A stretch of DNA of 22,388 bases from Candidatus Xenobia bacterium (GCA_045863235.1 BTUM01000111.1:1-22388); one strand, 5' to 3'; shown: positions 1 to 16,434, counted from the stretch's first letter. A program made the numbers and translations. The notes: generated by a model from the letters alone, not told the origin.

Positions 1-222
1 CTCGCGGCGTTTAGCTCCGCGGCATCGCTCAGGTTGGGATGCTACCCCTGTCCGTTTCGGCTCGGACAGACCGTCTCCAGCACTTTCCCGGAGATTGCTT
101 CCTTCGGGCTCTCGCGGCGTTTAGCTCCGCGGCATCGCTCAGGTTGGGATGCTACCCCTGTCCATATCGGCTCGGACAGCCCGTCCCCGGTTAGTTTCCC
201 GGAGATTTGCTTCCATTTGTCT
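1..222. repeat. Two ~110-bp tandem units, first 53 bp identical (1-53 = 111-163)
   Basis: Direct comparison: ctcgcggcgtttagctccgcggcatcgctcaggttgggatgctacccctgtcc occurs at 1 and 111; the remainder of the units is similar but diverged. Confidence 0.95.
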
Positions 223-614
223 TCGCGGCGTGAGCTCCGCGGCGTGACTCAGGTTTGCACGCCACCCGGCCGGTCTTTCGATCCTGGCCGTGCCCTTTGC
301 TTACGCGGCCTGGGCCCCGCGGCATCACTCGGTCTGGATGCGACCCCTGTCCGTATCGGTATCCGACAGTCCGCCGGTTCTTTCGCTTCCCGGTGCGCTG
401 ACTTCTTTCGTTTGGTCAGAACGCTGGTCTCTTCGCCGACCAGGGGCAAGCCCGCATGGGCTTGTTCGGTTCCCACCTCTCCGAACGCTCCGAGCTCTTC
501 TGGATTCGCTTCAACGGTGGCTAGCTCACCTCCGCGAGTCGCTGTCGGCTCGGCCCCTCTGAACTTATCGCAGTCAGAGCTTCTGCGGCGTGACTCAGGT
601 CTGCACGCAACCCC
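3..614 (-). repeat. Dispersed ~45-bp two-hairpin module, 5 copies (3-48, 113-158, 224-267, 304-347, 569-614)
   Basis: Minus-strand pattern GGGT-N-[GCATC|GCGTG]-CMRACC(T)GAGY-[GATGC|CACGC]-[CGCGG|CGCAG]-loop-[CCGCG|CTGCG]. Confidence 0.9.
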
Positions 615-752
615 TTCGGAATTCCTCCGAAGCCTCGGTCTTCGCTCTCCGAGTGCGTCCCGAAAAATCCTTTCGGGATTTCGGCTCTCCGCTTGCCGAG
701 TGCGGCGTCTCCGGTTTCCCGGTTCCGCGCCGGCATCGCTGCCGACCGGCGG

Positions 753-781
753 ACTATGCCACCTTTCCGACCGCCTGTCAA
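753..781 (-). promoter_or_regulatory. Sigma70-type promoter with extended -10 and GC-rich discriminator
   Basis: Minus strand: TTGACA (781-776), 17-bp spacer ending in TGG, CATAGT (758-753), then CCGCCG; A/T tracts upstream (786-818). Predicted TSS ~746. Confidence 0.8.
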
Positions 782-873
782 CTCCGAAAATTTGTTCGGT
801 CCTGGAATTTCAAAAAAACAGCCCGCCAAGAGGGTGCAAAGGCGAGCCGACGAGGGATTCCGTATGGGTTCGG

Positions 874-1224
874 TTAGAATCGAGCTTGCTGAAAGAACTT
901 GGCGTAGGGGTTGCCGCTGGGTGCGGCCAGATGGCTCAGGGGAGCCATCACCCTCTGCTTGAGGTTGGCCACCGCGCCCATGACCTGGAGATCGGCCGGA
1001 GCCACATCGGAGCTGAAGTTGCGCAGCCCGGCCGGCAGTCCCCCGATCGCTACCGCGCCCACCGGCAGATTGGCCAGCACCGGACGGGTCAGGGGGCGCG
1101 ACTCGGAGGCGACCCGCACTTCGAATTCTGGAGCCGGAGCCAGTTGCGGCTTGCTCTCGCGGGCGGGCGGGAGATCGAGGCCACTGGCCGCGGGCAGCAT
1201 GAAGGGGATGCTCATTCCGACCAT
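874..1224 (-). CDS. Hypothetical protein, 116 aa, Pro/Ala-rich
   Basis: ATG preceded by a strong SD (AAAGGAG, 1240-1234) and a TATCCT -10-like hexamer (1261-1256); no recognisable domain. Confidence 0.7.
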   Translation of the reverse strand: MVGMSIPFMLPAASGLDLPPARESKPQLAPAPEFEVRVASESRPLTRPVLANLPVGAVAIGGLPAGLRNFSSDVAPADLQVMGAVANLKQRVMAPLSHLAAPSGNPYAKFFQQARF

Positions 1225-1293
1225 TGCGTGGCGCTCCTTTCTCCGGGTTGACTACAGGATATCCCACCGAGTGCTCCGGAGTTCACCGAAAAC

Positions 1294-1320
1294 GTGTTAA
1301 GGGAGTGTAATCAGTGTTAA
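1294..1320. promoter_or_regulatory. Three direct repeats GTGT(T)AA with 10-bp period; probable transcription-factor binding site
   Basis: GTGTTAA 1294-1300, GTGTAA 1305-1310, GTGTTAA 1314-1320 in an AT-rich divergent intergenic region. Confidence 0.6.
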
Positions 1321-2266: not shown

Positions 2267-3921
2267 GCCGGGTCTTCCTGGTCCTGTTGCTGTTGGCCCG
2301 GGTGGCCCTGGCCCAGCCGGCCGACCTGGTCTTGCGCGACGCGCGCGTTTACCCGCTGGACGGAGCTCCTACCGAGGCCGTGGCCGTGCGTGCAGGGCGC
2401 ATCGTGTATGTGGGCCCCAACTCGGGGGTGGAGGCCCTCACCGGACCCGGGACCCGGGTGCTCAGCCTGCCCGGCCGCATGGTGCTGCCCGCCTTCCACG
2501 ACTGCCATGTCCACCCGCTCGAGGGCGGCGTGGAGTTGGGGCGGCTGTTGTTGGACAGCTCGGCCACCTCCCCCCAGGTCTGGCTCGACCGCCTGGCCGC
2601 CTACGCCCGCGAGCATCCCGAGAAGAGCTGGATCGTGGGCGGGGGCTGGGCCAACCCGCTTTTCCCCGAAGGCAATCCCAGTCGCAAGCTGCTCGACGCC
2701 GTGGTCAGCGACCGTCCGGTCTACCTGGTCACCGCCGATGGCCATTCGGCCTGGCTCAACAGCGCCGCCCTGGCTGCGGCCGGCATTACCCGCGAGACAC
2801 CCGACCCGCCCGGAGGGCGCATCGAGCGCGAGAAGGACGGGGCACCAGCAGGTACACTGCGCGAGAATGCCCTGGCGCTGGTAGCGCCGTTTCTGCCGCC
2901 CACCACCCTCGAAGAGCGCCAGGAGGGGCTGAGGAAGGCGCTGGCCATGGCCCACAGCTTCGGAATCACAACCCTGCACGAGGCCCACGCACGTGACGAG
3001 GCCGACCTGAGTGCCTATGCCGCCCTGGAGGCAGGCGGAGAGCTGAAGGCCCGCATCATCGCCAGCTTGCACACCGAGCCCGGTCAGGGAGCCGGCCAGG
3101 TGGGCCAGCTGATCGCCCTGCGCAAGCGCTATCTGAGCCGCCTCCTGCGCCCCACGGCGGCCAAGATCTTTGCCGATGGTGTCATCGAGTCGCGCACCGC
3201 GGCTCTGCTCCAACCTTACAGCGACAAGACCAGCGGCATGCTCAACTTCCCCCCCGACGAGCTGACCGCGCTGGTGGTGGCCCTGGACCGGGCCGGCTTT
3301 CAGGTCCACGTGCACGCCATCGGCGACCGGGCTGTCAGGCTGACCCTGGATGCCCTGGAACAGGCCCGTCGGGCCAACGGACGACGGGACGCGCGCCACC
3401 ACCTGGCCCACCTCGAGCTGGTCCATCCCGACGACCTGCCGCGCTTTGCCAGCCTGGAGGTGGGAGCCACCGTCCAGCCGCTGTGGGCCCAGCGCGACAG
3501 CTACATCCGCGAGCTGAGCGAGCCCTTTCTGGACGCCGAGCGCAACGCTCGTCTCTATCCCCTGGCCGCCCTTGCGCGCCACGCTCGGCTGGCGGGCGGC
3601 AGCGACTGGTCGGTGAGCAGCATGAATCCCCTTCAGGCCATCGAGGTGGCGGTCACCCGGCGCGGTCCCGACGAGCCCGCCGGACCGCCCTGGCTTCCCG
3701 AGCAGCGGCTCGATCTGGACACGGCCTTGCGCGCTTACACGGTGGGTGGGGCCTATGCCAGCTTCCAGGAGAACGAGACCGGGACGCTCACGGTGGGCAA
3801 GGCCGGCGATTTGATCGTGCTCGAGCGGGACCTGTACCAGATCGAGCCCGGGGAGATCGGCTCGGTCAAAGTGCTGCGCACCTTCTTCGAGGGAGAAGAG
3901 GTCTACACGGCCTCGCCCTGA
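2263..3921 (+). CDS. Amidohydrolase-3 family (YtcJ-like) metal-dependent hydrolase, probably exported
   Basis: Motifs PAFHDCHVH, DGHSAWLNS, KIFADG, VHAIGDRA, HHLAHLEL, GGSDW, YTVGGAYA, GKAGDLIVL. An in-frame CTG at 2263 completes a signal peptide (SRVFLVLLLLARVALA-QP); the ORF track starts at TTG 2287. Confidence 0.92.
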   Translation: MSRVFLVLLLLARVALAQPADLVLRDARVYPLDGAPTEAVAVRAGRIVYVGPNSGVEALTGPGTRVLSLPGRMVLPAFHDCHVHPLEGGVELGRLLLDSSATSPQVWLDRLAAYAREHPEKSWIVGGGWANPLFPEGNPSRKLLDAVVSDRPVYLVTADGHSAWLNSAALAAAGITRETPDPPGGRIEREKDGAPAGTLRENALALVAPFLPPTTLEERQEGLRKALAMAHSFGITTLHEAHARDEADLSAYAALEAGGELKARIIASLHTEPGQGAGQVGQLIALRKRYLSRLLRPTAAKIFADGVIESRTAALLQPYSDKTSGMLNFPPDELTALVVALDRAGFQVHVHAIGDRAVRLTLDALEQARRANGRRDARHHLAHLELVHPDDLPRFASLEVGATVQPLWAQRDSYIRELSEPFLDAERNARLYPLAALARHARLAGGSDWSVSSMNPLQAIEVAVTRRGPDEPAGPPWLPEQRLDLDTALRAYTVGGAYASFQENETGTLTVGKAGDLIVLERDLYQIEPGEIGSVKVLRTFFEGEEVYTASP

Positions 3922-4463
3922 ACGCGGGTCACTTCCTGACGGATGCTCAGCTCTCCCAGGCTGCCCACGATCGTATAGCCCTCGGCGGTAGGCTGGATGG
4001 TCTCGCGCAGTTGCCGCTCCCCCAGTTTGCCTTCCACCGTCAGGCTTCCGTCCTCGAGCGGGGTGATGCGGGCCCGGTAGGCTTCCCCTCCCACCTCGCC
4101 CTCGATCACGGCGTCCTCGTCCTCCTCGCGGGCCAGCAGACGGATCGGGATCGTGCCCACCTGGCCCTGGATGGTCTCGCGCCGATCGTCGGGGTGGATC
4201 TCCAGACGCAGCTCGGGGCCCTCGAGCGTGCGCCGGAAGTGGGGTCCTGGCCGGGAGGTGAGCTGGCCCAGGCTGCTGGATATGTCGTAGGAGTCGGCCC
4301 GGATGCTGTATTCCAGGCTCTCGCCCTCCAAACAGGTACGCACTGTAGCTCCCTGGCGGCGGTTCTCGAGCAGCGAGATAGCCAGGGGGAGGGAGATGAC
4401 ATCGGCGCCGGGTACGAACAGGGCCTCGGCGGGGTGGTCGATTCGGGAGAAGTTGATGCGCAT
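3903..4463 (-). CDS. Hypothetical protein with ~23-aa beta-strand repeats (hxGxhG)
   Basis: 186-aa ORF; recurring IQGQVG, IEGEVG, VEGKLG, IVGSLG; converges on the amidohydrolase with a 19-bp 3' overlap; TAGCCT 6 nt before ATG. Confidence 0.8.
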   Translation of the reverse strand: MRINFSRIDHPAEALFVPGADVISLPLAISLLENRRQGATVRTCLEGESLEYSIRADSYDISSSLGQLTSRPGPHFRRTLEGPELRLEIHPDDRRETIQGQVGTIPIRLLAREEDEDAVIEGEVGGEAYRARITPLEDGSLTVEGKLGERQLRETIQPTAEGYTIVGSLGELSIRQEVTRVQGEAV

Positions 4464-5030: not shown

Positions 5031-8000
5031 GTGAGAATCTCGGACCAGGCCGGCTTCGTGCTGCGGCCTCGCTCCGCTGCGCCCGACCGGGCCGCGGCTG
5101 AGCGGGCTCTGGCGGCCATGCGGCAAGAGCTCGAGCCCTGGAAGGCCGAAGGCAGCTGGGCCTCGCACCGCAGCTTCATGTTCGGTTGGGCCGAGGGCTT
5201 CTCGGACAGCCCGGGCGCCGACTACGAGAATCGCTCCGACAGCTCGCTGACCAGCGCTCCCCTCTCGCTGGCGGGCGTGCGCGAGCCGCGCCTGGAGTTC
5301 AGTGAGCGCCACTCTCTCGAATCGGGCTACGACTACGTGCGCGTCGAGGTACAGAGCCTGGCCGACGGACGCTGGCGTGAGCTCGAGAGCCTGACCGGCC
5401 GTAACCTGCGCAGCAGCCGATCCTACGATCTTTCCCCCTACGTCGGTGCAAGCGTGCGGGTTCGGCTGCGGCTCACCTCTGACGGCTCCAACACCGCTTC
5501 CGGCATCACCACCGGCCCCATTCGCATCGTGGGCAAAGGGGTCAGCTTCACCCCCGCCGAGCACTGCCGCAAGGCCCGCGAACAGCTCGAGCAGCTCGAG
5601 CCGGCTGCGGTTCTGGCGGTGTACGAGCTGGCCCAAAAGGTTCAGGGAGTCGCTCCCGCGCTGGCCCTGTGGGGCGACCTGGCGCCCCACCTGGGACAGC
5701 CCGACTATGCCGCCCGGCGCGACGCCCTGGTGGCCCTGAGCCTGAAGTCCGCTCGCAGCGCCTGGCCGGCCCTGGCCAGCGCCTCCCCGGCCAACCTGCC
5801 CTCCGGACTCTCCCACGTGAGCGAGCTGGTGCGAGAGCTTGGTCCGTCCGGGGCCAGCCTGCTGCCCTCGCTGGGGGCGGCGGCCACCGCCGAGCAGCGC
5901 CAGGGGATCATCGAGCTGGCTCGCCGCGAAGGGGTGGAAGAGGCGGCCCGCGCCTGGCCCGGTCTGCAGCCCCAGCAGCCCGGTCTGCAAGAGCGTCTCG
6001 AGCTGCGCGAGCTGGCCCGCCAGGCCGAATGGGATGCCGGCGAGCTGGCTGCCCGCCAGCTCTCGGCCCGCGAGCGGCAGGCCGTCAAGAGCATCCTCCA
6101 GGCCCCCACCGGCTGGCGTCCCGAGGGCACCTGGGCCCGGACCTGGCGCGGCTGGGACGACAGCCCCGGGGCCGACTACGAGAATCGGGCCAACTCCAGC
6201 CTGGGCCTGCCGGTGCTGGACCTCAACGAGCTGAGCGAGCCGAAGCTGGTCTTCCGCGAGAGCCACAGCCTGGAGAAGGGCTACGACCAGGTGACCCTGG
6301 AGGCCAGCCGGGACGGCAAGAGCTGGGGCGAGCTGGAGAGCTGGACGGGTCGCGCCTGGATGAAGAAGCGCCAGGTGGATCTGTCTGCCTACCAGGGGGG
6401 GGCTCTGCATCTTCGCTTCCGGCTGAGCGCGGACGGATCCAACACCGCCAGCGGCATCCGCATCGGCTCCATGACGCTGGAAGGAAAGCGCGAGGGGGAA
6501 GAGGTCAGCCTGAGCGTGGAAGACCGCTCGCAAGAGGTGAGAAAGCTTCTCTGGCAGGCCCTCATGCAGCCGGTTGGCAGCGCTCGTGAGGAGGGGCTGG
6601 CTCGCCTGGAGCAGGCCACCCGCCAGCTCGGCTCGGCCCGCGAGGCCTTGAGCCTGGGGCCGTCCCCCGAGAGCGAGCTGGTGGGCCTGGCCGGCAAGCT
6701 GGGCAGCCGTGCGGCAGTCGAGGTGTGGCCTTCGGTGGCGGCCCTGAAAGAGCGCCCCCGGGCCCTGGCTTGCCTCGAGGAGCTGCGCCGCCACCACTCC
6801 CCGGCCGACGTGGCCCGGCTCTGGAAGGTGCTCGCGCCGGCCGCCGACTCGCCGGACTTCGACCGTCTGAAGAGCTCGCTGACTGACCTGGCGTCCCAGG
6901 AGGGCGTCAGTGCCGCGGTGCGCCGCTTCAGCGGCTTTGCCCTGACCGGGGTGGCGGCCGTGGAGCGCTCGGTCAAGCTGCACGAGCTGGCCCGGCGGCT
7001 CGAGCCCGGTCGCTCGGAGAAGCTGTGGGAGGAGCTGCAAAAGTCGGGCGCTGACCCGCAGGTGCTGGAGAAGCTCGACCAGCACGTGCGCGACTTTCGT
7101 CCCGAGGGCACCTGGGCCCGCGTGCGGCCGGCCTCCTGGGCCTTCCGCGAGGTGTGGCAGGATAGCCCGGGCGCCGACTACGAGCCGCGCGCCGACAGCT
7201 CTCTGGTGACCCCGCCCATCTCCCTGGGCGGGATGCGCACGGCCAGTGTGCGCTTCTGGTCGGGGTTCTCGCTGGAGAGGGGATATGACAAGGTGGGCGT
7301 GGAGGTCTCGCAGGACGGCGGGCAGCGCTGGAACGAGCTCCAGTCCTACACCGGATGGGGGGGGCGGGCCCGGCGCTCGGTCAACCTGGATGAGTATGCC
7401 GGCAAGACCGTGCAGCTTCGCTTCCGCCTGACCTCGGACGGCAGCAACCAGGCCGGGGGCATCTCGCTGGGTCAGCTTACGGTTCTGGGGGAGGACGAGC
7501 AGGGCCGCACCCTCAAGCGGGTGGTGGATCCAAAGGCGCGCGAGACTCGGGCCGAGCTGGCGCGGCTGGCCTGCCAGGCCCCCGGCGACCTGCCCGAGCT
7601 GGAGCAGGTGGCGGCCCTGGCCGGCGGCACGCGCAATGCGCTTGGCCTCTGGTCGGTGGTGCGGACTGCCGACCCTGTCCGCCGTTCCACGGCCGCCGCC
7701 CTGGCCGCCGAGGTGGGGGTGGAGAGCGCGCTGCGCTCCTGGCCGTCGCTCTCCGCCTGCCCGGAAGCCCAGCTCCCGGGCGTGCTGCAGGCTGCTCGCG
7801 ACTGCAACAAGGGCTGGGAGGCGCTGGCCAGCGACCTCCTGGCCCCCGATCTACCCGAGCGCGCCCTCGCTCTCAACCGCCTGGTCGAGCACCTGGGCGA
7901 GGAAGCTGCCCTGCAGCGCTGGCCGGCCCTGGTGGCCAGCACCCACGGCACGCTGGCCGACCGGGTCGAGGCCGAGGAGCTGGCTGCCCGGCTCGAGGGC

Positions 8001-8885
8001 CGCGTGGCCGGCCGAAGCCGCGAGCAGGTGGCCGCCAGCCTGGCCGACTCTGAGCTTGGTCGCGAAGGGTCCGATTCGCTGCGAGCCCTGGTGGGCGATC
8101 GCCAGGATACCAGCATGCGGACCGAGGACAGCTGGGCCCAGGTGCGCTCGCCCTGGTGGCTGGGTCGCAAGGTCTGGCAGGACAGCCCGGGCGCCGACTA
8201 CAAGCCGCGCGCCGACAGCAGCCTGACCTCGCCCCCGGTCTCGCTGGCCCAGCTCTCCGAGCCGGTGCTGCGCTTCACTGAGCATCACAACCTGGAGAGC
8301 GGTTACGATGCGGTGCGGGTGGAGGTCAGCTCGGACGGCCAGCGCTGGAACGAACTGGAAAGCTACTCGGGCAAGAACATCTTCTCGCGCCGCAAGATCG
8401 ACCTGAGCTCGTATGTGGGGCAGCGGGTGCAGGTGCGCTTCCGGCTGACCTCCGACGGCAGCAACCAGCGCTCGGGCATCAGCCTGGCCAACCCTCGCAT
8501 CGAGGGCACCGACGGCAAGGGCGAGAAGGTCGTGCTGCAGCTCGACGAGCTGCCCCTGGAGGAGGTTACGCCCTACCTCGACCTGGCCGTGGACGGCCAG
8601 CACACGCCGTCGCAGCGCCGCAGCTACCTCGACTTCATGGCCGGGTTGCCCGAGCCGGCCCGCCAGGAGCTGCTGGCCTTCTGCCGCGAGCAGCGCGTCA
8701 GCCTGTCGCGGGCCATCAACGCGCTGCTGCAGGTGCGCCTGACTTCCGACCCGAGCGACAAGGACTGGCTGCGCAAGGCCCTGGCCAGTTTGCCCGGCCT
8801 TCTGACCAGCGAGCAGGCCATCGGCGAGACGGCCGAGCGGGTGACCATCGGGGGAGTGGTGGTCCGTAAGCGCGAGAACGAATAG
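5031..8885 (+). CDS. 1284-aa protein with four InhA-like/MAM-type beta-sandwich domains separated by helical repeats; C-terminal IGGVV-KR motif
   Basis: Four copies of DSPGADY..R.DSSL..P.SL....L.F....SLE.GYD.V.VE.S.DG..W.ELES..G....DL..Y.G..V..RFRL..DGSN...GI at about 5140-5540, 6110-6490, 7095-7490 and 8115-8510. No signal peptide and no protease motif recognised. Confidence 0.88.
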   Translation: MRISDQAGFVLRPRSAAPDRAAAERALAAMRQELEPWKAEGSWASHRSFMFGWAEGFSDSPGADYENRSDSSLTSAPLSLAGVREPRLEFSERHSLESGYDYVRVEVQSLADGRWRELESLTGRNLRSSRSYDLSPYVGASVRVRLRLTSDGSNTASGITTGPIRIVGKGVSFTPAEHCRKAREQLEQLEPAAVLAVYELAQKVQGVAPALALWGDLAPHLGQPDYAARRDALVALSLKSARSAWPALASASPANLPSGLSHVSELVRELGPSGASLLPSLGAAATAEQRQGIIELARREGVEEAARAWPGLQPQQPGLQERLELRELARQAEWDAGELAARQLSARERQAVKSILQAPTGWRPEGTWARTWRGWDDSPGADYENRANSSLGLPVLDLNELSEPKLVFRESHSLEKGYDQVTLEASRDGKSWGELESWTGRAWMKKRQVDLSAYQGGALHLRFRLSADGSNTASGIRIGSMTLEGKREGEEVSLSVEDRSQEVRKLLWQALMQPVGSAREEGLARLEQATRQLGSAREALSLGPSPESELVGLAGKLGSRAAVEVWPSVAALKERPRALACLEELRRHHSPADVARLWKVLAPAADSPDFDRLKSSLTDLASQEGVSAAVRRFSGFALTGVAAVERSVKLHELARRLEPGRSEKLWEELQKSGADPQVLEKLDQHVRDFRPEGTWARVRPASWAFREVWQDSPGADYEPRADSSLVTPPISLGGMRTASVRFWSGFSLERGYDKVGVEVSQDGGQRWNELQSYTGWGGRARRSVNLDEYAGKTVQLRFRLTSDGSNQAGGISLGQLTVLGEDEQGRTLKRVVDPKARETRAELARLACQAPGDLPELEQVAALAGGTRNALGLWSVVRTADPVRRSTAAALAAEVGVESALRSWPSLSACPEAQLPGVLQAARDCNKGWEALASDLLAPDLPERALALNRLVEHLGEEAALQRWPALVASTHGTLADRVEAEELAARLEGRVAGRSREQVAASLADSELGREGSDSLRALVGDRQDTSMRTEDSWAQVRSPWWLGRKVWQDSPGADYKPRADSSLTSPPVSLAQLSEPVLRFTEHHNLESGYDAVRVEVSSDGQRWNELESYSGKNIFSRRKIDLSSYVGQRVQVRFRLTSDGSNQRSGISLANPRIEGTDGKGEKVVLQLDELPLEEVTPYLDLAVDGQHTPSQRRSYLDFMAGLPEPARQELLAFCREQRVSLSRAINALLQVRLTSDPSDKDWLRKALASLPGLLTSEQAIGETAERVTIGGVVVRKRENE

Positions 8886-8995
8886 CTCCTGGCTGGTTGA
8901 ATCTGTGGAGCGCTGATTCGGGATTTCAGCCACTTTCCAAGCCTGAAGCTGAGCCCAGGCCAGGGCAGGCCCGAGCGAGAAGTGTCTTGCCAGGG

Positions 8996-11710
8996 ATGCG
9001 ATGTCAATCCTGTGGCTTTCAACCGGACTCGAGTCACCGCTTCTGCGCCATGTGCGGGCAGCGGCTGGCGGGCGGCGAGCTGGCCGAGCGTCGCTCGCTG
9101 ACCGTCTTGTTCTGCGACCTGGTGGGCTCCACCGCCCTCTCCACCAGGCTCGACCCCGAGGACCTGCGTGAGCTCGTGCGCCAGTACCAGCGGGCCGCAG
9201 CCGCCGTGGTGGAGCGGCTGGAGGGCTACATCGCCCAGTTCCTGGGCGACGGCCTGCTGATCTACTTCGGCTACCCCGTGGCCCACGAAGACGACGCCCA
9301 GCGCGCCGTGCGCTGCGCCCTGGAGCTGCTCGAGAGCGTGCCCACTTCCCTGCAGCTGCGACTGGGGGCTCACACCGGCACCGTGGTGGTGGGCGAGATG
9401 GGCGGCGGCTGGCGACGCGAGCGCCTGGCGATCGGCGACGTGCCCAACCTGGCCGCTCGCCTGCAGAGTCTGGCCGAGCCGGGCACGCTGCTCGTCAGCG
9501 AGGTCACCCGCGATCTGTGCGCCGAGCAGTTTCACACCGAGAGCGTGGGCGAGGTGCTCCTCAAGGGCCTGGCCCGCGAAGTGAGCGTCCATCGGGTGCT
9601 GGGGCGGCGCTCGGCGACGGTGAGGCTGGCTCCCACGTCCTTCGTGGGACGCGGCCGCGAGCTTCAGGTGCTGGAAGCGCTCTGGGAGCAGGTGCAGGCT
9701 GGCGCCTTCCGGCGCGTCAATCTGGTGGGCGAGCCGGGCCTGGGCAAGACCCGCCTGCTGCGCACCTTCTGCCAGCGCTGCCAGGCCCCCATGCTGCTGG
9801 CGCAATGCTCCCCCTATGCCGTGGACCACCCGTTCTTTCCGGTCAAGGAGTGGTTGCGAGCCATCCTGGGCCTGCCCCTCACCCCCACCACCGAGCAGGT
9901 GCGCGCCGCCCTTCCTCCCGGACCGCTGCTGGAGCTTCTTTCGCCCGAGCCCTCCACCCGTTTCGAGCTGGGCGAGATCCTGACCCACCTGACCGGATTT
10001 TTGGACGATTTCTGCCAGCGCCAGCCGACTCTCCTGGTGCTCGAGGACGCTCACTGGATCGACCTGTCCAGCCGCTTGCTGCTCACCCGCCTGGGCGCTC
10101 AGAGGGCCCTTTTGCTGGTCGCCGGGCGCACCTTGCCCGACTCGGACGGGGAGGTCATCCGATTGCAGCCCATGACCGTAGAGCAGATGGAGGTCTTGCT
10201 CCAGACCCTGCTGCCCGACCTGGAGCCGGCCAGTTGCCAGGCGCTCGCCCGACGCTGCGACGGCAACCCGCTCTTTGGCGAAGAACTCGCCCGCTCGAGC
10301 CGGGCCGGGCAGAGCGAGCTGCCCACCTCGCTGCAAGGCCTGTTGCTCTCGCGCCTGGATCAGTTGCCGTCCTCGCGTCGCCTGGCCCAGGTGGCCTCGG
10401 TGATCGGTCGACATTTCCCCCTGGACGTGCTGGGAGCACTGTGCGAGGCCCCGCTGGAGCCGGCCCTGTCCGAGCTGGTGCAAGCGGGGGTGCTGGAGCG
10501 GTGGGGCGAAAGCGCCGGGTTCCGTCACGCCCTGATGCAGGAGGCGGCCTACCAGACCCTGCTGCATAGCGACCGCCAGAAGCTCCATCTGACGCTGGCT
10601 CGCTTGCTGGAGAGCCACTTTCCGGCTCTGGCCCGGACTCGTCCGGAGATGCTGGCTCATCACTATCGTCAGGCCCGCCAGTTGGAGCAGGCCAGCTTGC
10701 TGTGGGAGGAGGCTGCTCGGCAGTCTGTGCGGCGGGGTGCCAATGTCGAGGCCTTGCGGCACCTGGACCGGGCCCTTGAAGGGGTGGGTGAGCCCGAGCG
10801 CGAGCTGATCCTGATCAGCCAGCGCATCGGCCCCCTGATCGGGACCGAAGGTTACGCCAGCGAGGAGGTAGCCGGCATTGCGGCCCGGGCTCAGGAGCTG
10901 AGCCGGGCCCTCGAGCATCCACCTTTTGCCGCCCTGCGCGGTTTGTGGGCCTACCACCTGGTGCGCGCTGAGCTGAAGGACGCCAGCGACCTGGCCGCCC
11001 GTCTGCGAGCCATGGCCGCCGAGGGCCCGCCTGGCTGGGCGGTGGAGGCCGAGCTGGCCAGCGGCATCACGGCCGCACACATGGGCGCAACGGAGCTTTC
11101 TTTGGACCACCTGGAGCGCTCTTTGCGGCTGGGTGGCCGTCTTGATCCCGAGGCCGTGCGCCTCTACGGGCAGGACCCGGTCGTCCTGGGGCGGGCCCAT
11201 CTGGCCTGGCAACTGGCCCTCCAGGGCCAGGCCGAGGAGGCCCGGTTGGAACTGCGCCGTCTCCGCTCGCGCAGCCTCATCCACCCTTTCAGCCACATCA
11301 TTGCCCGGGTCTTCACGGCGACCGTGGCGCACCTGCTCGAGCAACCCCGCACGGCCCTGCGCGCCGCTTCCGAGGCTCGCGAGCTGTGTGCGCGCCACGA
11401 CTCGCGCCACTGGCTTGGCCTGGCTACCGGACTGGAGGGCTGGGGTCGCTCTCGCCTGGGCCAGCCCGAGCGGGGCCTGGAGATGGTTCGTGAGGGCTAC
11501 CGCTACCGGGCCGAGTCCGGGGCGCGGGTCAGCCTGGCCCATCTCAAGCTGCTGGAGGCCGATTGCCTGGTTGTGCTGGGGCTCGCCGGTGAGGCCGTGG
11601 CGGCCGCCCACAGGGGACTTGAGCTGGCCGAGTCGCATGGCGAGCCGGCCTACAGCAGCCGCTTGCGCGAGCTCATTCGATCCGCCGGGGGAGCGGTGGC
11701 TCCGGGCTGA
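8996..11710 (+). CDS. Zinc-ribbon + class III adenylate/guanylate cyclase + STAND (AAA_16-like) ATPase + TPR-like protein
   Basis: Start moved to ATG 8996 (MRCQSC...FCAMCG). Cyclase motifs LFCDLVGST, FLGDG, GAHTG, GDVPNLAARLQ; Walker A GEPGLGKT; Walker B LLVLEDAHW; GNPLF; FRHAL; helical C-terminus. Confidence 0.93.
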   Translation: MRCQSCGFQPDSSHRFCAMCGQRLAGGELAERRSLTVLFCDLVGSTALSTRLDPEDLRELVRQYQRAAAAVVERLEGYIAQFLGDGLLIYFGYPVAHEDDAQRAVRCALELLESVPTSLQLRLGAHTGTVVVGEMGGGWRRERLAIGDVPNLAARLQSLAEPGTLLVSEVTRDLCAEQFHTESVGEVLLKGLAREVSVHRVLGRRSATVRLAPTSFVGRGRELQVLEALWEQVQAGAFRRVNLVGEPGLGKTRLLRTFCQRCQAPMLLAQCSPYAVDHPFFPVKEWLRAILGLPLTPTTEQVRAALPPGPLLELLSPEPSTRFELGEILTHLTGFLDDFCQRQPTLLVLEDAHWIDLSSRLLLTRLGAQRALLLVAGRTLPDSDGEVIRLQPMTVEQMEVLLQTLLPDLEPASCQALARRCDGNPLFGEELARSSRAGQSELPTSLQGLLLSRLDQLPSSRRLAQVASVIGRHFPLDVLGALCEAPLEPALSELVQAGVLERWGESAGFRHALMQEAAYQTLLHSDRQKLHLTLARLLESHFPALARTRPEMLAHHYRQARQLEQASLLWEEAARQSVRRGANVEALRHLDRALEGVGEPERELILISQRIGPLIGTEGYASEEVAGIAARAQELSRALEHPPFAALRGLWAYHLVRAELKDASDLAARLRAMAAEGPPGWAVEAELASGITAAHMGATELSLDHLERSLRLGGRLDPEAVRLYGQDPVVLGRAHLAWQLALQGQAEEARLELRRLRSRSLIHPFSHIIARVFTATVAHLLEQPRTALRAASEARELCARHDSRHWLGLATGLEGWGRSRLGQPERGLEMVREGYRYRAESGARVSLAHLKLLEADCLVVLGLAGEAVAAAHRGLELAESHGEPAYSSRLRELIRSAGGAVAPG

Positions 11711-12284: not shown

Positions 12285-12545
12285 TCAGGTGGAGGGGTCT
12301 TGCTCGGCTGCCCGCAAGGCAGCCGAGATTTTTTCTTGCAGACCGGGGGGAAGTGCGGCTGGCTTGAGCTTATGGCGCACTTCCTCGAGCAGGCTGCGCT
12401 CGAAGGTATACTCCTCCAGGCAGACGGCGCACTGCTTCAGGTGCTCCTCCATCAAAGCGCTCTCCCGGGCGGTCAGCTCGGAGTCGAGGAAGTCGGCCAG
12501 GCGACGAAAGAACTGCTCGCAGGTGTAGTGGTCGGGAATGGTCAT
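12285..12545 (-). CDS. Zinc-binding (zf-HC2/ZAS, RsrA/RshA-like) soluble anti-sigma factor
   Basis: CEQF...LADFLDSEL...EEHLKQCAVC (HxxxCxxC); ATGA overlap with the sigma stop codon; no TM segment. Confidence 0.92.
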   Translation of the reverse strand: MTIPDHYTCEQFFRRLADFLDSELTARESALMEEHLKQCAVCLEEYTFERSLLEEVRHKLKPAALPPGLQEKISAALRAAEQDPST

Positions 12546-13120
12546 GCGAATCGGCCGCTCCTGTCGTCGCTGAATTCTCCCAGGCGTTGCTGGAGTTGCT
12601 TGCGACCGCGGTGGAGGCGCGAGCGGACCGTTCCGACGGGAACTCCCACCGCGTCGGCAATTTCCTGGTAGCTCATCTCGTTGAGGAAGTAGAGCGTACA
12701 GACCAGACGGAACTCCTCGGCCAGCTCTCCCAGGGCCAGATGCACCTGCTCGTGGCTGAGCCGGGCGAGCACCTCCCGCGCCGGATCCTTGCCCGGTTGC
12801 TGGAAGAGCCCGCTCTCTCGGGCCTTGCTGTAGAGATAGAGGTCGCCTGCCTCCTCCACGCTGACGAGCTCGGGCCGGCGTTTCTGCTGGCGATATTCTT
12901 CCAGATACAGATTGGTCAGGATGCGCAAGAACCAGGCTCGGAAGTTGGTGCCTTCCTGGAAGGTGTGGAAGGAGCGGAAGGCGCGCAGGGAGGCCTCCTG
13001 CACCAGGTTCTCGGCCCGGTCGGGACAGCGGGCCAGGTGGCGGGCAGTGGCGTAGGCGTTGGTCAGAACCGGGATGAGCAGGCGCTCGAAGCGGTCGGCT
13101 GCCGTCAGGGTCTCGCTCAC
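12542..13120 (-). CDS. ECF RNA polymerase sigma factor, SigH/SigR-like
   Basis: Start GTG 13120 (GTGA overlap with upstream stop). Region 2 AENLVQEASLRAFRSFHTFQEGTNFRAWFLRILTN; region 4 MSYQEIADAVGVPVGTVRSRLHRGR. Confidence 0.93.
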   Translation of the reverse strand: MSETLTAADRFERLLIPVLTNAYATARHLARCPDRAENLVQEASLRAFRSFHTFQEGTNFRAWFLRILTNLYLEEYRQQKRRPELVSVEEAGDLYLYSKARESGLFQQPGKDPAREVLARLSHEQVHLALGELAEEFRLVCTLYFLNEMSYQEIADAVGVPVGTVRSRLHRGRKQLQQRLGEFSDDRSGRFA

Positions 13121-13803
13121 GCCGCCCCCCACACCGGTCCGTATAAGGAGCCTTCCGATTCGAGCTGCGAGCGATCCAAATTGAGGCAACCGGCCAGTAC
13201 TGTGCGAGCCAGGATCGCCCCCTGGAACCGGCAACTCGCCAGGTCGGCCCCGTTGAAATTGGCCAGCGTCAGGTCGGAGTCGGAGAGGTCGGCATGGCGC
13301 AGGCGGGCCAGGGTCAGGTCGGCCTCCACCAGCTCGGCCCCCCGCAGCAGGGCACCAGAAAGGTCGGCCCGGGTGAGCCGGGCGGCCCACAGCTGGGCTC
13401 CAGTCAGGTTGGCACCGGGCAATCTGGCCTCGGACAGGTCGGCCCGTTGCAGGTAAGCGCTCTCGAGCGTGGCGCGACTGAAGTCTGCCCAGCGCGCCGC
13501 CACGCCTTCGAGCCGGGCCCCGATCAGTCGGGCTGCGGCCAGCCTCGTGGCCAGCAATACGGCACGGCTCAGGTCGGCCCCCGTGAGGTCGCACCCCCCC
13601 ATCTCCGCGTTGGTCAGCTCGGCGGTCACCAGCCTCGCGGACCGGAGGGTGGCCCCCGTGAGGTCGGCGTTGCCCAGGTCGACGCCCCGAAGGTCGAGAC
13701 CGGAAAGGTCGGCCTGGCGCAGATCGGCATAAGCAAGCGAGGCGCCGGGCTCGAGCAGGCCCAACTCGGCGCCGGTGATGCGATGACGAACCGTCCGCTT
13801 CAT
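13117..13803 (-). CDS. Pentapeptide-repeat protein
   Basis: Continuous A(D/N/E/R)LxG/A pentamers (ADLRQ ADLSG ... ADLTG ATLRS ... ANLTG). Confidence 0.95.
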   Translation of the reverse strand: MKRTVRHRITGAELGLLEPGASLAYADLRQADLSGLDLRGVDLGNADLTGATLRSARLVTAELTNAEMGGCDLTGADLSRAVLLATRLAAARLIGARLEGVAARWADFSRATLESAYLQRADLSEARLPGANLTGAQLWAARLTRADLSGALLRGAELVEADLTLARLRHADLSDSDLTLANFNGADLASCRFQGAILARTVLAGCLNLDRSQLESEGSLYGPVWGAA

Positions 13804-13842
13804 GCTCGCGACGGTTCGCCAACGCCTGCGACCTTCCTGGCG

Positions 13843-16434
13843 TCAGGACACACTCCCCGTAAGCGCGCGCACGCGGGCCACCCGCTCGAGGCACGAGGCC
13901 ACCAGCGCTGTCCAGCCGGTCTGGTGGCTGGCCCCCAGACCGCGTCCGGTATCGCCGTGGAAATACTCATGGAATAAGATCAGGTCACTCCACTCGGCCG
14001 CGTATCGAGAATTCTCCCCATGGCACGGGCGTTTGCCGTCAGGTCCGGGAAGGAATAACTTGCTCAGTCGGCTCCAGAGGTCCACCGCTCGGCTGGCATA
14101 GCCGGCCCGGTAGAACCGGTCCATCCGATCCAGAGCTTCAGCTAGCAGGTAGTTGACTGGAAACCACACGGGGCCGCGCCAGTTGGAGTTCCCGCCGAAC
14201 AGCCCGGTTTGCGATTCCCCGGGCTCATAGTCCACGCGGAACTCGACCCCGCCCAGCTCCACCGCGTAAGGCTGGTGGGCATGGGCTCGCGACAGAGAGC
14301 GGAGGCCATAGGGCGAGAGGAACTCTTCTTCGTCGAACATGCGATCCATGAGCCGGGGCAGCCGCTCGGGAGGAACCAGAGAGAGCAGCAGCTGGTCGTG
14401 GTCCTGGCGGACGTGTCGAGCGAGCTCTCCGGAGTTGCCCAGGAACCATTGCAGACGCTTCCAGAACCCCGGCAGCTTTTCGAGTTCCGAGCGCTTGAGC
14501 ACTTCGACCGCGATCAAAGGCATCAGGCCCACCAGCGAGCGCGCTTTGAGGGGCACGGGTCCTGTCTCGGTGCGGACGACGTCGTAGTAGAAGGCGTCCT
14601 GCTCGTCCCAGACATCCAGCCGATTCATCGCATGGGTGATGGCCACGAAATGTTCGAAGAACTTGGAGGCTATGTCCTCATAACTCTGGTTGGTGCGCGC
14701 GAGCTCCAGAGCGATGGTCAGCATCCTGAGACAGAAAAAGGCCACCCAGCTCGTAGCGTCCGACTGCTCGAGGCGGCCGAGCTCGGTCGGGAAGCGCGAG
14801 CGGTCCAGAACGCCCACGTTGTCCAGACCCAGGAAGCCTCCGCCGAAGATGTTGTTCCCGTCCTGGTCGGTGCGGTTGACCCACCAGGTGAAGTTCAGCA
14901 GGAGCTTGTGAAAGACGCGCTCGAGAAACTCGCGGTCAGGCTCGGGCTGCGAGCGGTAGATCCGGAGGGCTGCCCAGGCGTGCACGGGCGGGTTGACATC
15001 GCTGAAGTTGAACTCATAGGCCGGGATCTGCCCGTTGGGATGCATGTACCACTCGCGCAGGAGCAGCAACAGCTGCTGTTTGGCAAAGTGAGGGTCGACC
15101 CGCGCCAGAGGAACGACCTGGAAGGCCAGGTCCCAGGCGGCGTACCACGGATACTCCCACTTGTCGGGCATGCTGATCACATCGCGGTTGTAGAGGTGGC
15201 CCCACTCGTTATTGCGCCCTGTAAGACGCTCAGCTGGAGGGGAGGGCTCGGTAGGGTCTCCCCCGAGCCATGGCTCCACGGCGTAGTGGTAGAATTGCTT
15301 GGACCAGAGCAGGCCCGCATAGGCCTGCCGTGCAACGTTTCGCTCCTCGGCCGAGAGCCCCGGCGGCAGCCTGCGCTCGTAGAACAGGTCGGCTTCTCGT
15401 TCGCGCTCAAGAAACGCGGACGCGAAAGAGGGGCCGAAGGCCTCGCCCGACTCCCCGATGGTGAGCCGCAATCGGACCTCGGCGCTTCCCCCGGCGGGAA
15501 CGTTCAGCGAGTAGAGAACGGCGGCTTTGGTGCCCTCCTGACGAGGATTGACGGCCTCTTGCTCGCCCCCCACCAGGTAGCGGTGAAAGGCATCCTTGAC
15601 GTAGCTGTGGCGGTTCTTTACTCCCCAGAGGAGCTCGCGGTTGCTCTCGTTCTCCGTAAAAAGCAGCTCGGGAGGCTCGCCCGTGGGAGAGAGGTCGGGC
15701 TCGAGCCGGCCGCTTCCGAGCTCGCCGTGCTCGAAGGCGATGGAGCCGCCCTGGTTCCAGAGCCTGGGCCTGGGTGAGTATCCCTCTCCTTGGCGGCCCC
15801 AGCTCCAGGTATTGCGGAACCACAACTGGGGAAGCAGCCACACCGGCGCTTGCCGCGGCCCGCGATTGTAGACGCGGAACCGGATCAAGAGGTCGTCAGG
15901 CCCGGCCTTGGCATATTCCACGAAAACATCGAAGTAGCGGTTGTCTTGGAAGGCTCCCGTGTCCTCGAGCTCGTGCTCAGGCTCATGGCGGCCCCGGGAG
16001 CGGCTCAGGTCCTGGTAAGGAAACTCTCGCTGCGGATACTTGTAGAGCGCCCGCATGAAGCTGTGGGTTGGCGTTGCGTCGAGGTAGTAATAGCACTCCT
16101 TGACGTCCTCGCCGTGGTTGCCTTCGGGGCCGGTCAGTCCGTAGAGGCGTTCTTTGAGGATCGGGTCGCGTCCGTTCCAAAGCGCCAGTGAGAAACAAAG
16201 TCGGGCCTGGCGGTCGCAAAACCCGAGCAGGCCGTCCTCGCCCCAGCGATAGACCCGAGAGCGGGCGTGGTCGTGGGGGAAGTGGCCCCAGGTATCGCCG
16301 TCGGCAGAGTAGTCCTCGCGCACGGTCGCCCACTGGCGCTCGGCCAGATAGGGCCCCCATCGCTTCCAGTTCAGCTCGCGACGGTGATCTTGCTCCAATC
16401 GGAGCGACTCGCGGTCAGGTCCAGCGAAAGACAT
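13843..16434 (-). CDS. GH63/MGH1-like glycoside hydrolase (glucosidase)
   Basis: Motifs [73 protein letters not shown]. Start set at ATG 16434 behind SD AAGGAGG (ORF track start 16455). Confidence 0.93.

What the first reader, a model, noticed from the sequence alone, without database searches (positions are those of the whole stretch)
3..614. Five-copy two-hairpin module with compensatory base changes and possible pseudoknots
Seen (minus strand): stem 1 is GCATC/GATGC in copies at 3-48, 113-158 and 304-347 but GCGTG/CACGC at 224-267 and 569-614. Stem 2 is CGCGG/CCGCG in four copies and CGCAG/CTGCG in the fifth. Pairing is kept while sequence changes, and loop 1 (CMRACC(T)GAGY) and the 5' GGGT are conserved. 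The two stems abut with no linker. Inference: GGGT can pair with ACC(T) in loop 1 (H-type pseudoknot), and loop-1 GAGY can pair with GCT(C) in loop 2 in four of five copies. This compact tertiary fold is of the kind seen in aptamers, self-cleaving ribozymes or processing signals.
Basis: partly seen in the sequence, partly recalled or inferred. Interest (0 to 1): 0.8.

Follow-up and report, generated by a model that had tools for sequence, protein, structure and literature searches.

The report
Modular pseudoknot RNA gene of Eremiobacterota
The five repeated hairpin pairs are the conserved cores of folded units repeated within one long, stand-alone non-coding RNA gene; it belongs to an undescribed multi-copy RNA family of large-genome Eremiobacterota whose job is still unknown.

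Summary
Five copies of GGGU + hairpin + abutting hairpin lie on the minus strand at 3-47, 113-157, 224-267, 304-346 and 569-613, and both stems keep pairing through compensatory changes.

They are not free-standing 46-nt elements. Each is the middle of a larger unit. Short units are about 106-110 nt. Full units are about 190 nt and carry three pseudoknots.

The units are strung inside one non-coding RNA gene:
- The promoter is at 781-753 on the minus strand.
- The array runs off the contig start and continues on contig C13, ending at a terminator.
- That gives at least 9 units and at least 1.27 kb.

The genome has eight such genes (25 model matches). Relatives in three families of one class have them too. 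There is no Rfam match, and no paper turned up in four literature searches. Contigs from RNA libraries cover the locus.

- The GGGU:ACC pseudoknot is supported, with one covarying G:C to A:U pair.
- The loop-1:loop-2 pairing is not supported; loop 2 pairs with a downstream strand instead.

The function is inferred only. My best guess is a multivalent binding platform for an unknown partner.

This scan noted the same kind of RNA earlier in other Xenobia genomes (e1-6556666, e1-6403541, e1-6403533).

The parts
753..781 (-). Sigma-70-type promoter of the RNA gene: TTGACA, 17 nt, (TG)CATAGT. The inferred start is near 745-747.
   Evidence: the only promoter-like site in 1-1400 (10 of 12 matches, TG extension; shuffles give a mean of 0.1). 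The same TTGACA-17-TAnAnT layout precedes the paralogous RNAs. The start site is inferred, not mapped.
646..747 (-). 5' leader of the RNA: a string of short hairpins. The first, at about 729-746, corresponds to the GUCGACGGCGACGUCGAC hairpin of the paralogues.
   Evidence: compared by eye.
457..645 (-). Unit I, a diverged full unit.
   Evidence: R1 match of 66.7 bits, E 9e-18; sequence read.
385..456 (-). Linker hairpins. The P0 hairpin CCGG-GAAGCGAAAGAA-CCGG (374-393) leads into unit II.
   Evidence: The P0 hairpin recurs before units in the paralogues.
276..384 (-).
   Evidence: R1 match of 55.9 bits, E 1e-14.
195..303 (-). Unit III, short and diverged: an A-like hairpin (268-289), GGGU + B + C (224-267).
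   Evidence: R1 match of 25.6 bits, E 3.8e-4.
85..194 (-). Unit IV, short, 110-nt period: hairpin A (158-179), GGGU + B + C (113-157), then the hairpins CCCGAAGG and CUCCGG...CUGGAG.
   Evidence: R1 match of 44.4 bits, E 2e-11; 95% direct repeat with unit V.
1..84 (-). Unit V, short, cut by the contig end: hairpin A (48-69), GGGU + B + C (3-47). The array goes on at the end of contig C13: 3 more short units, one full unit at C13:123317-123515, and a terminator at C13:123315-123296.
   Evidence: R1 match cut at its 3' end. That the two contig ends adjoin is shown by a contiguous orthologous locus in G001.
812..827 (-). GC stem and U-run ending the upstream protein gene, so the RNA gene has its own promoter behind a terminator. 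Read by eye; the scan tool did not call it because its loop is too long.
   Evidence: sequence; one search found 0 terminator-like sites under its stricter rule.
874..1224 (-). Upstream neighbour, not part of the RNA: a 116-aa ORF of no known family with coding-like base composition.
   Evidence: GC by codon position 0.72/0.50/0.79; no Pfam or NCBIfam hit; conserved upstream of the RNA in G001-G003.

Best explanation
SHOWN: Window 1-747 (minus strand) is the 5' two-thirds of a stand-alone gene for a long non-coding RNA. The RNA is at least 1.27 kb and holds at least 9 units; the exact number is lost in an assembly break. The gene has its own promoter, and its terminator lies on contig C13. The RNA is a chain of repeated folded units. 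A full unit (about 190 nt) is made of: a P0 hairpin; hairpin A, whose loop CCG pairs with the 5' flank CGG; GGGGU; hairpin B, whose loop ACC pairs with the GG of GGGGU; hairpin C, whose loop pairs with a downstream strand; a closing helix around a three-way junction with two GNRA hairpins; and a terminal hairpin with a UGAGGWUGGAG loop. The gene is one of eight paralogues in this genome, holding 1 to at least 9 units each. The family is found in large-genome members of one class of Eremiobacterota. INFERRED: the amplified part (A+B with invariant CUG..CAGGGGU..C..AC..AG) is an autonomous pseudoknotted binding module. By carrying many copies, the RNA would act as a multivalent platform or sponge for one partner, most likely a protein still to be identified. 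Its capacity would be tuned by unit number and gene number.
For: Structure: on 87 distinct units from 37 sources, 92.6% of cells pair against 76.5% in shuffles (0 of 500 shuffles reach it). The covariation score is 0.368 against 0.042-0.056 for slid partners, and 41 of 44 pairs show changes on both sides. The three pseudoknot helices were not in the model that made the alignment, so they are free of fitting bias. Loop C with the downstream strand is 89.5% paired, with 6 of 6 pairs doubly changed. G78:C94 gives GC 76 and AU 7. The 5' flank with loop A is 81.7% paired. An independent mutual-information scan ranks the same helices at the top. Many G:U cells fix the strand (for example UG 43 at columns 385/421 and GU 23 at 87/133). 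Gene anatomy: a single promoter hit at 781-753 and a terminator on C13. The paralogues show the same promoter, 5' hairpin, units and terminator layout. Six of 8 loci are followed by a convergent gene. Contiguity: the G001 orthologue spans both contig ends. Not coding: GC by codon position is flat (0.61/0.66/0.63), and the long + strand ORF is broken by 2-7 stops in three relatives. Family: 25 matches in the genome; 19 of 41 relatives; 19 of 151 genomes of the phylum (f1 4/4, f2 13/16, f5 1/1, the other 18 families 0). Unit number varies between orthologues: 5 in G001, about 10 in G004, at least 9 here. RNA libraries: 9 RNA runs of 6 studies hold 0.37-0.76 of the sampled words. In the 4 runs laid, contigs cover 200-646, 200-722 (in pieces), 200-737 and 200-1002 and bridge units I-III. 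For the platform reading specifically: the short units that were amplified keep exactly the most conserved part, a single-unit gene exists (C35), and the invariant bases sit in loops and junctions.
Against: No partner is known. CsrA, RRM and TROVE proteins were not found in this 97.6%-complete genome, and no gene is consistently next to the eight loci. The RNA evidence is contigs only: no strand, no ends, no processing state, and RNA libraries can hold DNA. One run (X2) has a single low-depth contig that runs on into the neighbouring gene. The fold of 1-747 is only moderately better than shuffles (z -2.89 on 20 shuffles). Units are paralogues and orthologues, so shuffle controls overstate independence. 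The pseudoknot on hairpin B rests on one covarying position plus invariant bases.
Confidence: 0.55

Rival explanations
1. Precursor array: the long transcript is cut, by itself or by an RNase, into unit-length RNAs of about 106-110 or about 190 nt that act singly. This would work as type III antitoxin arrays or tandem ribozyme-bearing repeats do, and is.
For: The layout is tandem and head-to-tail with a fixed 106-110-nt period. Single-unit genes exist (C35, C12), so one unit can suffice. The units are compact and pseudoknotted.
Against: No hammerhead, twister, HDV, pistol, hatchet or other ribozyme model matches, even at E<=10. RNA-library contigs bridge units I-III, so at least some molecules are uncut. 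No toxin or nuclease gene follows the arrays.
Confidence: 0.17
2. Architectural RNA: the units pack against each other within one chain or between chains to build a defined RNA-only body. This would be a tandem-encoded counterpart of the homo-oligomers of GOLLD, ROOL and OLE.
For: There are GNRA tetraloops in two hairpins of every full unit, a conserved 12-nt P0 loop, and many repeated identical surfaces. The size and ornate fold resemble those RNAs (PMC12286853, abstract seen in the listing).
Against: No covarying inter-unit contact was found in the mutual-information scan, which looks only within units. Unit number varies from 1 to about 10, which fits a fixed body poorly. There is no Rfam relation to those RNAs.
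Confidence: 0.12
3. Small-molecule aptamer array: each A+B module binds a metabolite, either as a riboswitch relative or as a metabolite buffer.
For: The pockets are pseudoknotted with invariant loop bases. One single-unit copy (C12) lies, with its terminator, directly 5' of an ECF-transporter S-component gene on the same strand, and this is syntenic within the genus.
Against: The orthologous S-component genes of six g4 genomes that have the RNA family carry no unit upstream; only the three own-genus loci do (3 hits in 29 loci). Six of 8 loci are followed by a convergent gene. No riboswitch model matches.
Confidence: 0.08
4. Genomic DNA repeat with no RNA function: REP/BIME-like, MITE-like or CRISPR-like.
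For: The element is repeated, palindrome-rich and intergenic, and it breaks assemblies in 3 of 5 genomes of the genus.
Against: There are only 25 matches at 8 loci, always in the same order and orientation between a promoter and a terminator. The loci are syntenic across species. G:U-dependent, strand-specific covariation is present. The 'spacers' are themselves conserved hairpins, not unique sequences. The locus is present in RNA-library contigs.
Confidence: 0.03
5. Protein-coding: the 416-codon open frame on the + strand (1-1251) is a gene.
For: The frame is open across the whole region.
Against: GC by codon position is flat. The frame is broken by 2-7 stops in three orthologous regions. It overlaps a coding-like gene on the other strand. 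The 110-nt repeat period is not a multiple of three.
Confidence: 0.01

Closest known systems
Large ornate bacterial RNAs of unknown function: OLE, GOLLD, ROOL, raiA motif RNA
   Same: Stand-alone genes for large, intricately folded RNAs with pseudoknots and GNRA loops. They are restricted to particular lineages, and their function is unknown or only emerging. PMC12286853 reports homo-oligomeric RNA-only complexes; I saw only its abstract, in the listing.
   Different: No Rfam model of these families matches. This RNA is a chain of 1 to about 10 copies of one unit, with copy number varying between species, and it forms an eight-gene family in one genome. As far as I recall, those RNAs are single non-repetitive folds.
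CsrB/RsmZ-type protein-sponge RNAs (from my own knowledge; no call)
   Same: Non-coding RNAs made of many repeats of one binding module, whose capacity scales with repeat number. They often come as several paralogous genes.
   Different: Those modules are simple GGA hairpins that bind CsrA. Here the modules are 100-190-nt pseudoknotted folds, and CsrA was not found in the genome.
Type III toxin-antitoxin antitoxin arrays such as ToxI (from my own knowledge; no call)
   Same: Tandem direct repeats of a pseudoknotted RNA unit behind one promoter.
   Different: ToxI units are about 36 nt, are cut out by the toxin, and are followed by a terminator and the toxin gene. Here the units are 3-5 times larger and 6 of 8 loci have no same-strand downstream gene.
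Earlier notes of this scan: 'Large modular noncoding RNA of Xenobia' (e1-6556666, e1-6403541, e1-6403533)
   Same: About 1.1-kb stand-alone RNA built of repeated folded modules, multi-copy, in large-genome Xenobia, with no Rfam match and unknown function.
   Different: Those notes concern other genomes. A sequence look-up with this window found no look-alike stretch in the index, so shared descent is likely but was not shown here.

Membership tests
Any Rfam 15 family (4227 models, including all riboswitch and self-cleaving ribozyme classes, OLE, GOLLD, ROOL, raiA, tmRNA, 6S) | Covariance-model score at or above the family's gathering threshold | tested here: not met
   0 hits in the whole window and 0 in six paralogous loci. 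At E<=10 only noise appears: the best hits are RNAI at 19.7 bits against a gathering score of 47, lying on the terminator, and a lncRNA fragment.
CsrB/RsmZ-type CsrA sponge | The partner protein CsrA is encoded in the genome | tested here: not met
   PF02599 was not found in the 97.6%-complete genome; the control genomes give hits.
CsrB/RsmZ-type CsrA sponge | Many GGA motifs presented in hairpin loops | tested here: inconclusive
   The terminal hairpin loop UGAGGWUGGAG and ACCAGGAG carry GGA/GGAG in full units. The amplified short units of the window lack that hairpin.
REP/BIME-like dispersed DNA repeats | Hundreds of scattered intergenic copies in either orientation, not organised as transcription units | tested here: not met
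   25 matches at 8 loci, each between a promoter and a terminator in fixed order.
CRISPR array | Near-identical repeats separated by unique spacers | tested here: not met
   The inter-copy segments are themselves repeated (78-nt repeat at 95%) and fold into conserved hairpins. Cas genes were not searched for.
Riboswitch / cis-regulatory leader | Lies in the 5' leader of the gene it controls, and the association is conserved across lineages | tested here: not met
   Six of 8 loci are followed by a convergent gene. The one ECF S-component association is confined to the genus.
Type III TA antitoxin array | Array followed by a terminator and a toxin endoribonuclease gene on the same strand | tested here: not met
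   No same-strand gene within 300 nt at 6 of 8 loci. The neighbours are unrelated housekeeping genes.
Self-cleaving ribozyme | Site-specific self-scission | not testable with these tools
   Only contigs of RNA libraries were available. They bridge unit junctions, which shows that uncut molecules exist but not that cleavage never occurs.
Xenobia modular ncRNA noted earlier by this scan | Sequence or structure homology of the repeated module | not testable with these tools
   The notes give no sequences, and the look-up by sequence returned nothing. The description, the lineage and the multi-copy, modular, Rfam-negative nature agree.

The most novel reading that the evidence does not exclude
The A+B double-pseudoknot module is a high-affinity receptor for a protein or a small molecule. 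On this reading, these bacteria make RNAs carrying up to ten or more receptors per chain from eight genes. That would be a tunable, high-capacity RNA buffer or assembly scaffold with no described bacterial counterpart, possibly folding into a defined multi-unit body like a tandem-encoded version of the ROOL/GOLLD cages.
Probability: 0.2. Interest if true: 0.85.

Novelty: new variant of a known kind. Interest (0 to 1): 0.62.

Why it matters
Large, well-folded bacterial RNAs without a known job are rare, and each one so far has opened new biology. This family has a unit with three covariation-supported pseudoknots, tandem amplification with species-specific copy number, eight genes per genome, and presence in RNA libraries of several wastewater and bioreactor studies. 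It comes from a phylum with almost no cultured members. The short 106-110-nt unit is small enough for immediate probing, binding and structural work. A partner found for it would assign a function to the whole family. Practically, these arrays break assemblies in 3 of 5 genomes of the genus. They would also be mis-annotated as ORFs: a 416-codon false frame lies over this one.

Tried and rejected
- **Rfam:** the gathering threshold gave nothing for the window or six other loci. The E<=10 setting gave only noise on the window 5' region and on two paralogues.
- **CsrA sponge:** rejected, because CsrA was not found.
- **RRM and TROVE/Ro60 partners:** not found. Hfq is present, but nothing links it to the RNA.
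- **Conserved neighbours:** Pfam on 19 window ORFs and on 28 ORFs around the eight loci shows unrelated genes.
- **Riboswitch for an ECF S-component (C12 copy):** the association is confined to the genus. TPP riboswitches seen near the orthologues in the small-genome family point at other genes.
- **Coding frame on the + strand:** rejected.
- **Degenerate 18-mer scan of genome contigs:** Of the 80 loci fetched, only 17 are true model hits. The other 63 (Nocardia, Streptomyces and others) are chance matches.
- **Read laying, parts without cover:** 755-940 has no cover in X5, X11 and X14. The RNA-part contigs carry far higher word depths (X5 2353-4305, X11 803.6) than the contigs on the neighbouring gene (2.5, 2.7). 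The tool states that uncovered parts prove nothing and that contig depth cannot rank genes, so I do not count this as evidence.
- **Read laying, contig ends:** the contigs end at 646, 722 and 737, which are not one place. No DNA run was laid for comparison, so the ends give no start site.
- **Read laying, X2:** its single depth-5 contig (200-1002) may be DNA or read-through.
- **Earlier-findings look-up by sequence:** nothing.
- **RNAalifold's long-range helix GCGG/CCGC:** not kept. It has no double change and two A-C cells. The rival 2-bp GNRA mini-hairpin covaries instead (CG 52, UA 5).

Full report
**1. The observation**

On the minus strand the window starts inside an array of repeats. The element GGGU + hairpin B + abutting hairpin C lies at 3-47, 113-157, 224-267, 304-346 and 569-613.
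- Stem B is GCAUC/GAUGC in three copies and GCGUG/CACGC in two.
- Stem C is CGCGG/CCGCG in four copies and CGCAG/CUGCG in one.
- Loop B is CMRACC(U)GAGY.

A strict pattern finds 8 matches in the 8.36-Mb genome. All are in one orientation: 5 in the window and 3 at the end of contig C13. The reversed control pattern finds none.

**2. What the copies belong to**

The window is the whole of contig C111, and the array runs off its start. The end of contig C13, read on its minus strand, holds three more near-identical 106-nt units. These are followed by a longer diverged unit and an intrinsic terminator (C13:123315-123296).

In the related genome G001 one contiguous locus aligns both to window 1300-1 and to the C13 end. 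The two contig ends therefore adjoin, and the assembly broke inside the tandem array. The contigs of G002 and G003 break there too.

Upstream, the only sigma-70-like site in 1-1400 is TTGACA-17-(TG)CATAGT at 781-753 on the minus strand. It lies just behind the stem and U-run that ends a 116-aa gene (874-1224).

The region 747-1, together with the C13 end, is thus one transcription unit of at least 1.27 kb with no credible ORF:
- The 416-codon frame on the + strand has flat GC by codon position (0.61/0.66/0.63). Real genes nearby show about 0.72/0.48/0.80.
- That frame is broken by 2-7 stops in three orthologous regions.

**3. The repeating unit**

nhmmer and a covariance model (R1, built from 14 full units) find 25 matches in the genome. 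They lie at eight loci.

| Locus | Units |
|---|---|
| Window + C13 | at least 9 |
| C59 | 5 |
| C43 | 3 |
| C23 | 3 |
| C6 | 3 |
| C79 | 2 |
| C35 | 1 |
| C12 | 1 |

Each locus has the same layout: a TTGACA-17-TAnAnT promoter, a 5' hairpin, the units, and a terminator.

A full unit is about 190 nt. A short unit keeps only hairpins A, B and C. The window holds one diverged full unit (645-457) and four short units (384-276, 303-195, 194-85, 84-1). Hairpin A, just upstream of each GGGU, was overlooked.

**4. Structure and covariation**

89 matches from 37 sources were aligned to the model. The sources are this genome and genomes of two families.

On the 87 distinct rows:
- 92.6% of cells pair, against 76.5% in shuffles (0 of 500 shuffles reach it).
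- The covariation score is 0.368, against 0.042-0.056 with slid partners.
- 41 of 44 pairs show changes on both sides.

The nested helices were part of the model, so the alignment leans towards them. The three pseudoknot helices were not, and they hold:
- (a) Loop C pairs with a strand 10-20 nt downstream: 89.5% paired, with 6 of 6 pairs doubly changed.
- (b) The first G of GGGU pairs with the last C of loop-B ACC: G:C 76, A:U 7, G:U 1, other 2. The next pair is an invariant G:C.
- (c) The 5' flank CGG pairs with CCG of loop A: 81.7% paired, with 2 of 3 pairs doubly changed.

The seven A:U units come from five loci and have different A and B stems. Close sister units carry G:C (by eye), so more than one event is likely.

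A separate mutual-information scan ranks the same helices at the top. Frequent G:U cells fix the minus strand as the folded one.

- Its columns are 38-90% pairable.
- Only 22 of 75 units have a 3-nt complement.
- In unit I of the window, the GCUCUGA of loop C faces a downstream UCAGAG.

Bases conserved at 90% or more are CUG..CAGGGGU..C...C..AC...AG in the 5' domain and CG.GAGG in the 3' domain. The whole 747-nt stretch folds at -309.6 kcal/mol, with z = -2.89 on 20 shuffles.

**5. Distribution**

R1 hits 19 of 41 relatives. By family: own genus 4/4 with 15-21 matches each, f2 14/16, the small-genome family f3 0/19, and f4 0/1.

In a sample of the phylum it hits 19 of 151 genomes. By family: f1 4/4, f2 13/16, f5 1/1, and the other 18 families 0, including f15 0/71. 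These are samples, and "not found" does not mean absent.

Among 80 loci fetched by a degenerate 18-mer from named genomes, 17 are true R1 hits. All 17 are in assemblies titled Eremiobacteraeota or Vulcanimicrobiota, in an unnamed "bacterium", or in two bins titled uncultured Burkholderiales. Earlier notes of this scan also place the genome in Eremiobacterota.

Orthologous RNAs differ in unit number: 5 in G001, about 10 in G004, at least 9 here.

**6. Expression**

Nine RNA runs of six studies hold 0.37-0.76 of the sampled words of window 200-1300. Four were laid, and all are contigs:
- X11 covers 200-646.
- X5 covers 200-722, in pieces.
- X14 covers 200-737.
- X2 covers 200-1002.

These contigs bridge units I-III. 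Loose ends at 353/364 and 398/400 show that paralogues sharing the P0 region are present in the same runs.

Contigs give no strand, ends or level, and an RNA library can contain DNA. This is consistent with a transcribed gene but is not proof. The depth contrast and the uncovered stretch are listed only under Tried and rejected, as the tool requires.

**7. What it is not**

- **A known RNA family:** no Rfam 15 family matches.
- **A REP-like repeat, CRISPR array or antitoxin array:** see the membership rows.
- **A leader:** 6 of 8 loci face a convergent gene.
- **A riboswitch:** the C12 copy sits 5' of an ECF S-component gene, but only within the genus.
- **Linked to a neighbouring gene:** the neighbours are unrelated.
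- **A CsrA, RRM or Ro60 partner RNA:** CsrA, RRM and TROVE proteins were not found; Hfq is present.

**8. Mechanism (inferred)**

Three observations guide the inference:
- What was amplified in the window's RNA is exactly the most conserved part: two consecutive H-type pseudoknots, A and B, with invariant loop and junction bases.
- One unit can stand alone as a gene.
- Unit number drifts between species while the unit's fold is kept.

This pattern fits an autonomous binding module displayed many times, that is, a multivalent platform or sponge for one partner. I give about 0.55 to the whole statement. The RNA-gene and fold parts are well above 0.9. The platform function is perhaps 0.35-0.4.

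Rivals are a precursor cut into unit RNAs (0.17), an architectural RNA-only body (0.12) and a metabolite aptamer array (0.08).

**9. Literature and novelty**

Four full-text searches found no description of this RNA:
- Eremiobacterota + noncoding RNA.
- Xenobia + Eremiobacterota.
- Structured noncoding RNA + tandem + pseudoknot + metatranscriptome + bacteria.
- GOLLD/ROOL/OLE since 2022.

I saw only listings and the starts of abstracts; no paper was read in full. This scan noted the same kind of RNA before in other Xenobia genomes. I did not rely on those notes.

I class it as a new variant of a known kind: large stand-alone structured RNAs and multivalent repeat RNAs.

Noticed in passing
G000 contig C12:51126-51304 (locus L185 about 3527-3830), next to L185:3831-4499: A reduced single unit with its own promoter-like site and terminator lies between a SpoU/TrmH-like methyltransferase gene (function recognised by eye from its sequence, not searched) and, on the same strand, an ECF-transporter S-component gene with a weak folate-family hit. 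The arrangement is syntenic in G001 and G004 but not in the other family.
   Followed up: yes
G000 contig C35:68310-68600 (locus L184 3511-3801): A single-unit member of the family (about 290 nt, 122.6 bits) lies downstream of a queuine tRNA-ribosyltransferase gene and a 116-aa ORF of no family. Orthologous single-unit genes occur in all four genus relatives (115-122 bits).
   Followed up: partly
window 1-1251, + strand: A 416-codon open frame overlies the RNA gene and the 116-aa gene. Its composition is flat and it is broken in relatives, so gene callers may annotate it falsely.
   Followed up: yes
window 874-1224, - strand: A 116-aa ORF with coding-like GC3 (0.79) and no Pfam or NCBIfam family, conserved directly upstream of the RNA gene in G001-G003.
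   Followed up: partly
G000 contig C13, locus L183 1829-3067 and 3307-4326: A tyrosine-integrase gene and a 339-aa ORF of no family lie 0.5-3 kb beyond the 3' end of the RNA gene. Whether the RNA gene's end serves as an integration site was not examined.
   Followed up: no
window 8897-11710 (+), 5031-8885 (+), 12542-13894 (-): Other window genes: a 937-aa adenylate/guanylate cyclase + AAA_16 protein, a 1284-aa InhA-like MAM-domain protein with a weak F5/8 type C hit (below Pfam's cut-off), and a 450-aa sigma-70-family protein with a long N-terminal extension.
   Followed up: no
loci L204-L209, L212, L216 (small-genome family f3): TPP riboswitches (59-77 bits) lie 1-2 kb from the orthologues of the ECF S-component gene, but in the one locus whose geometry I checked (L205) the riboswitch is not in that gene's leader.
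   Followed up: partly
L174, L175, L176, L177 (G001-G004 orthologues of the window's RNA): Unit number differs between species (5, about 10, and two cut by contig ends). The tandem arrays end contigs in three of five genomes of the genus.
   Followed up: yes
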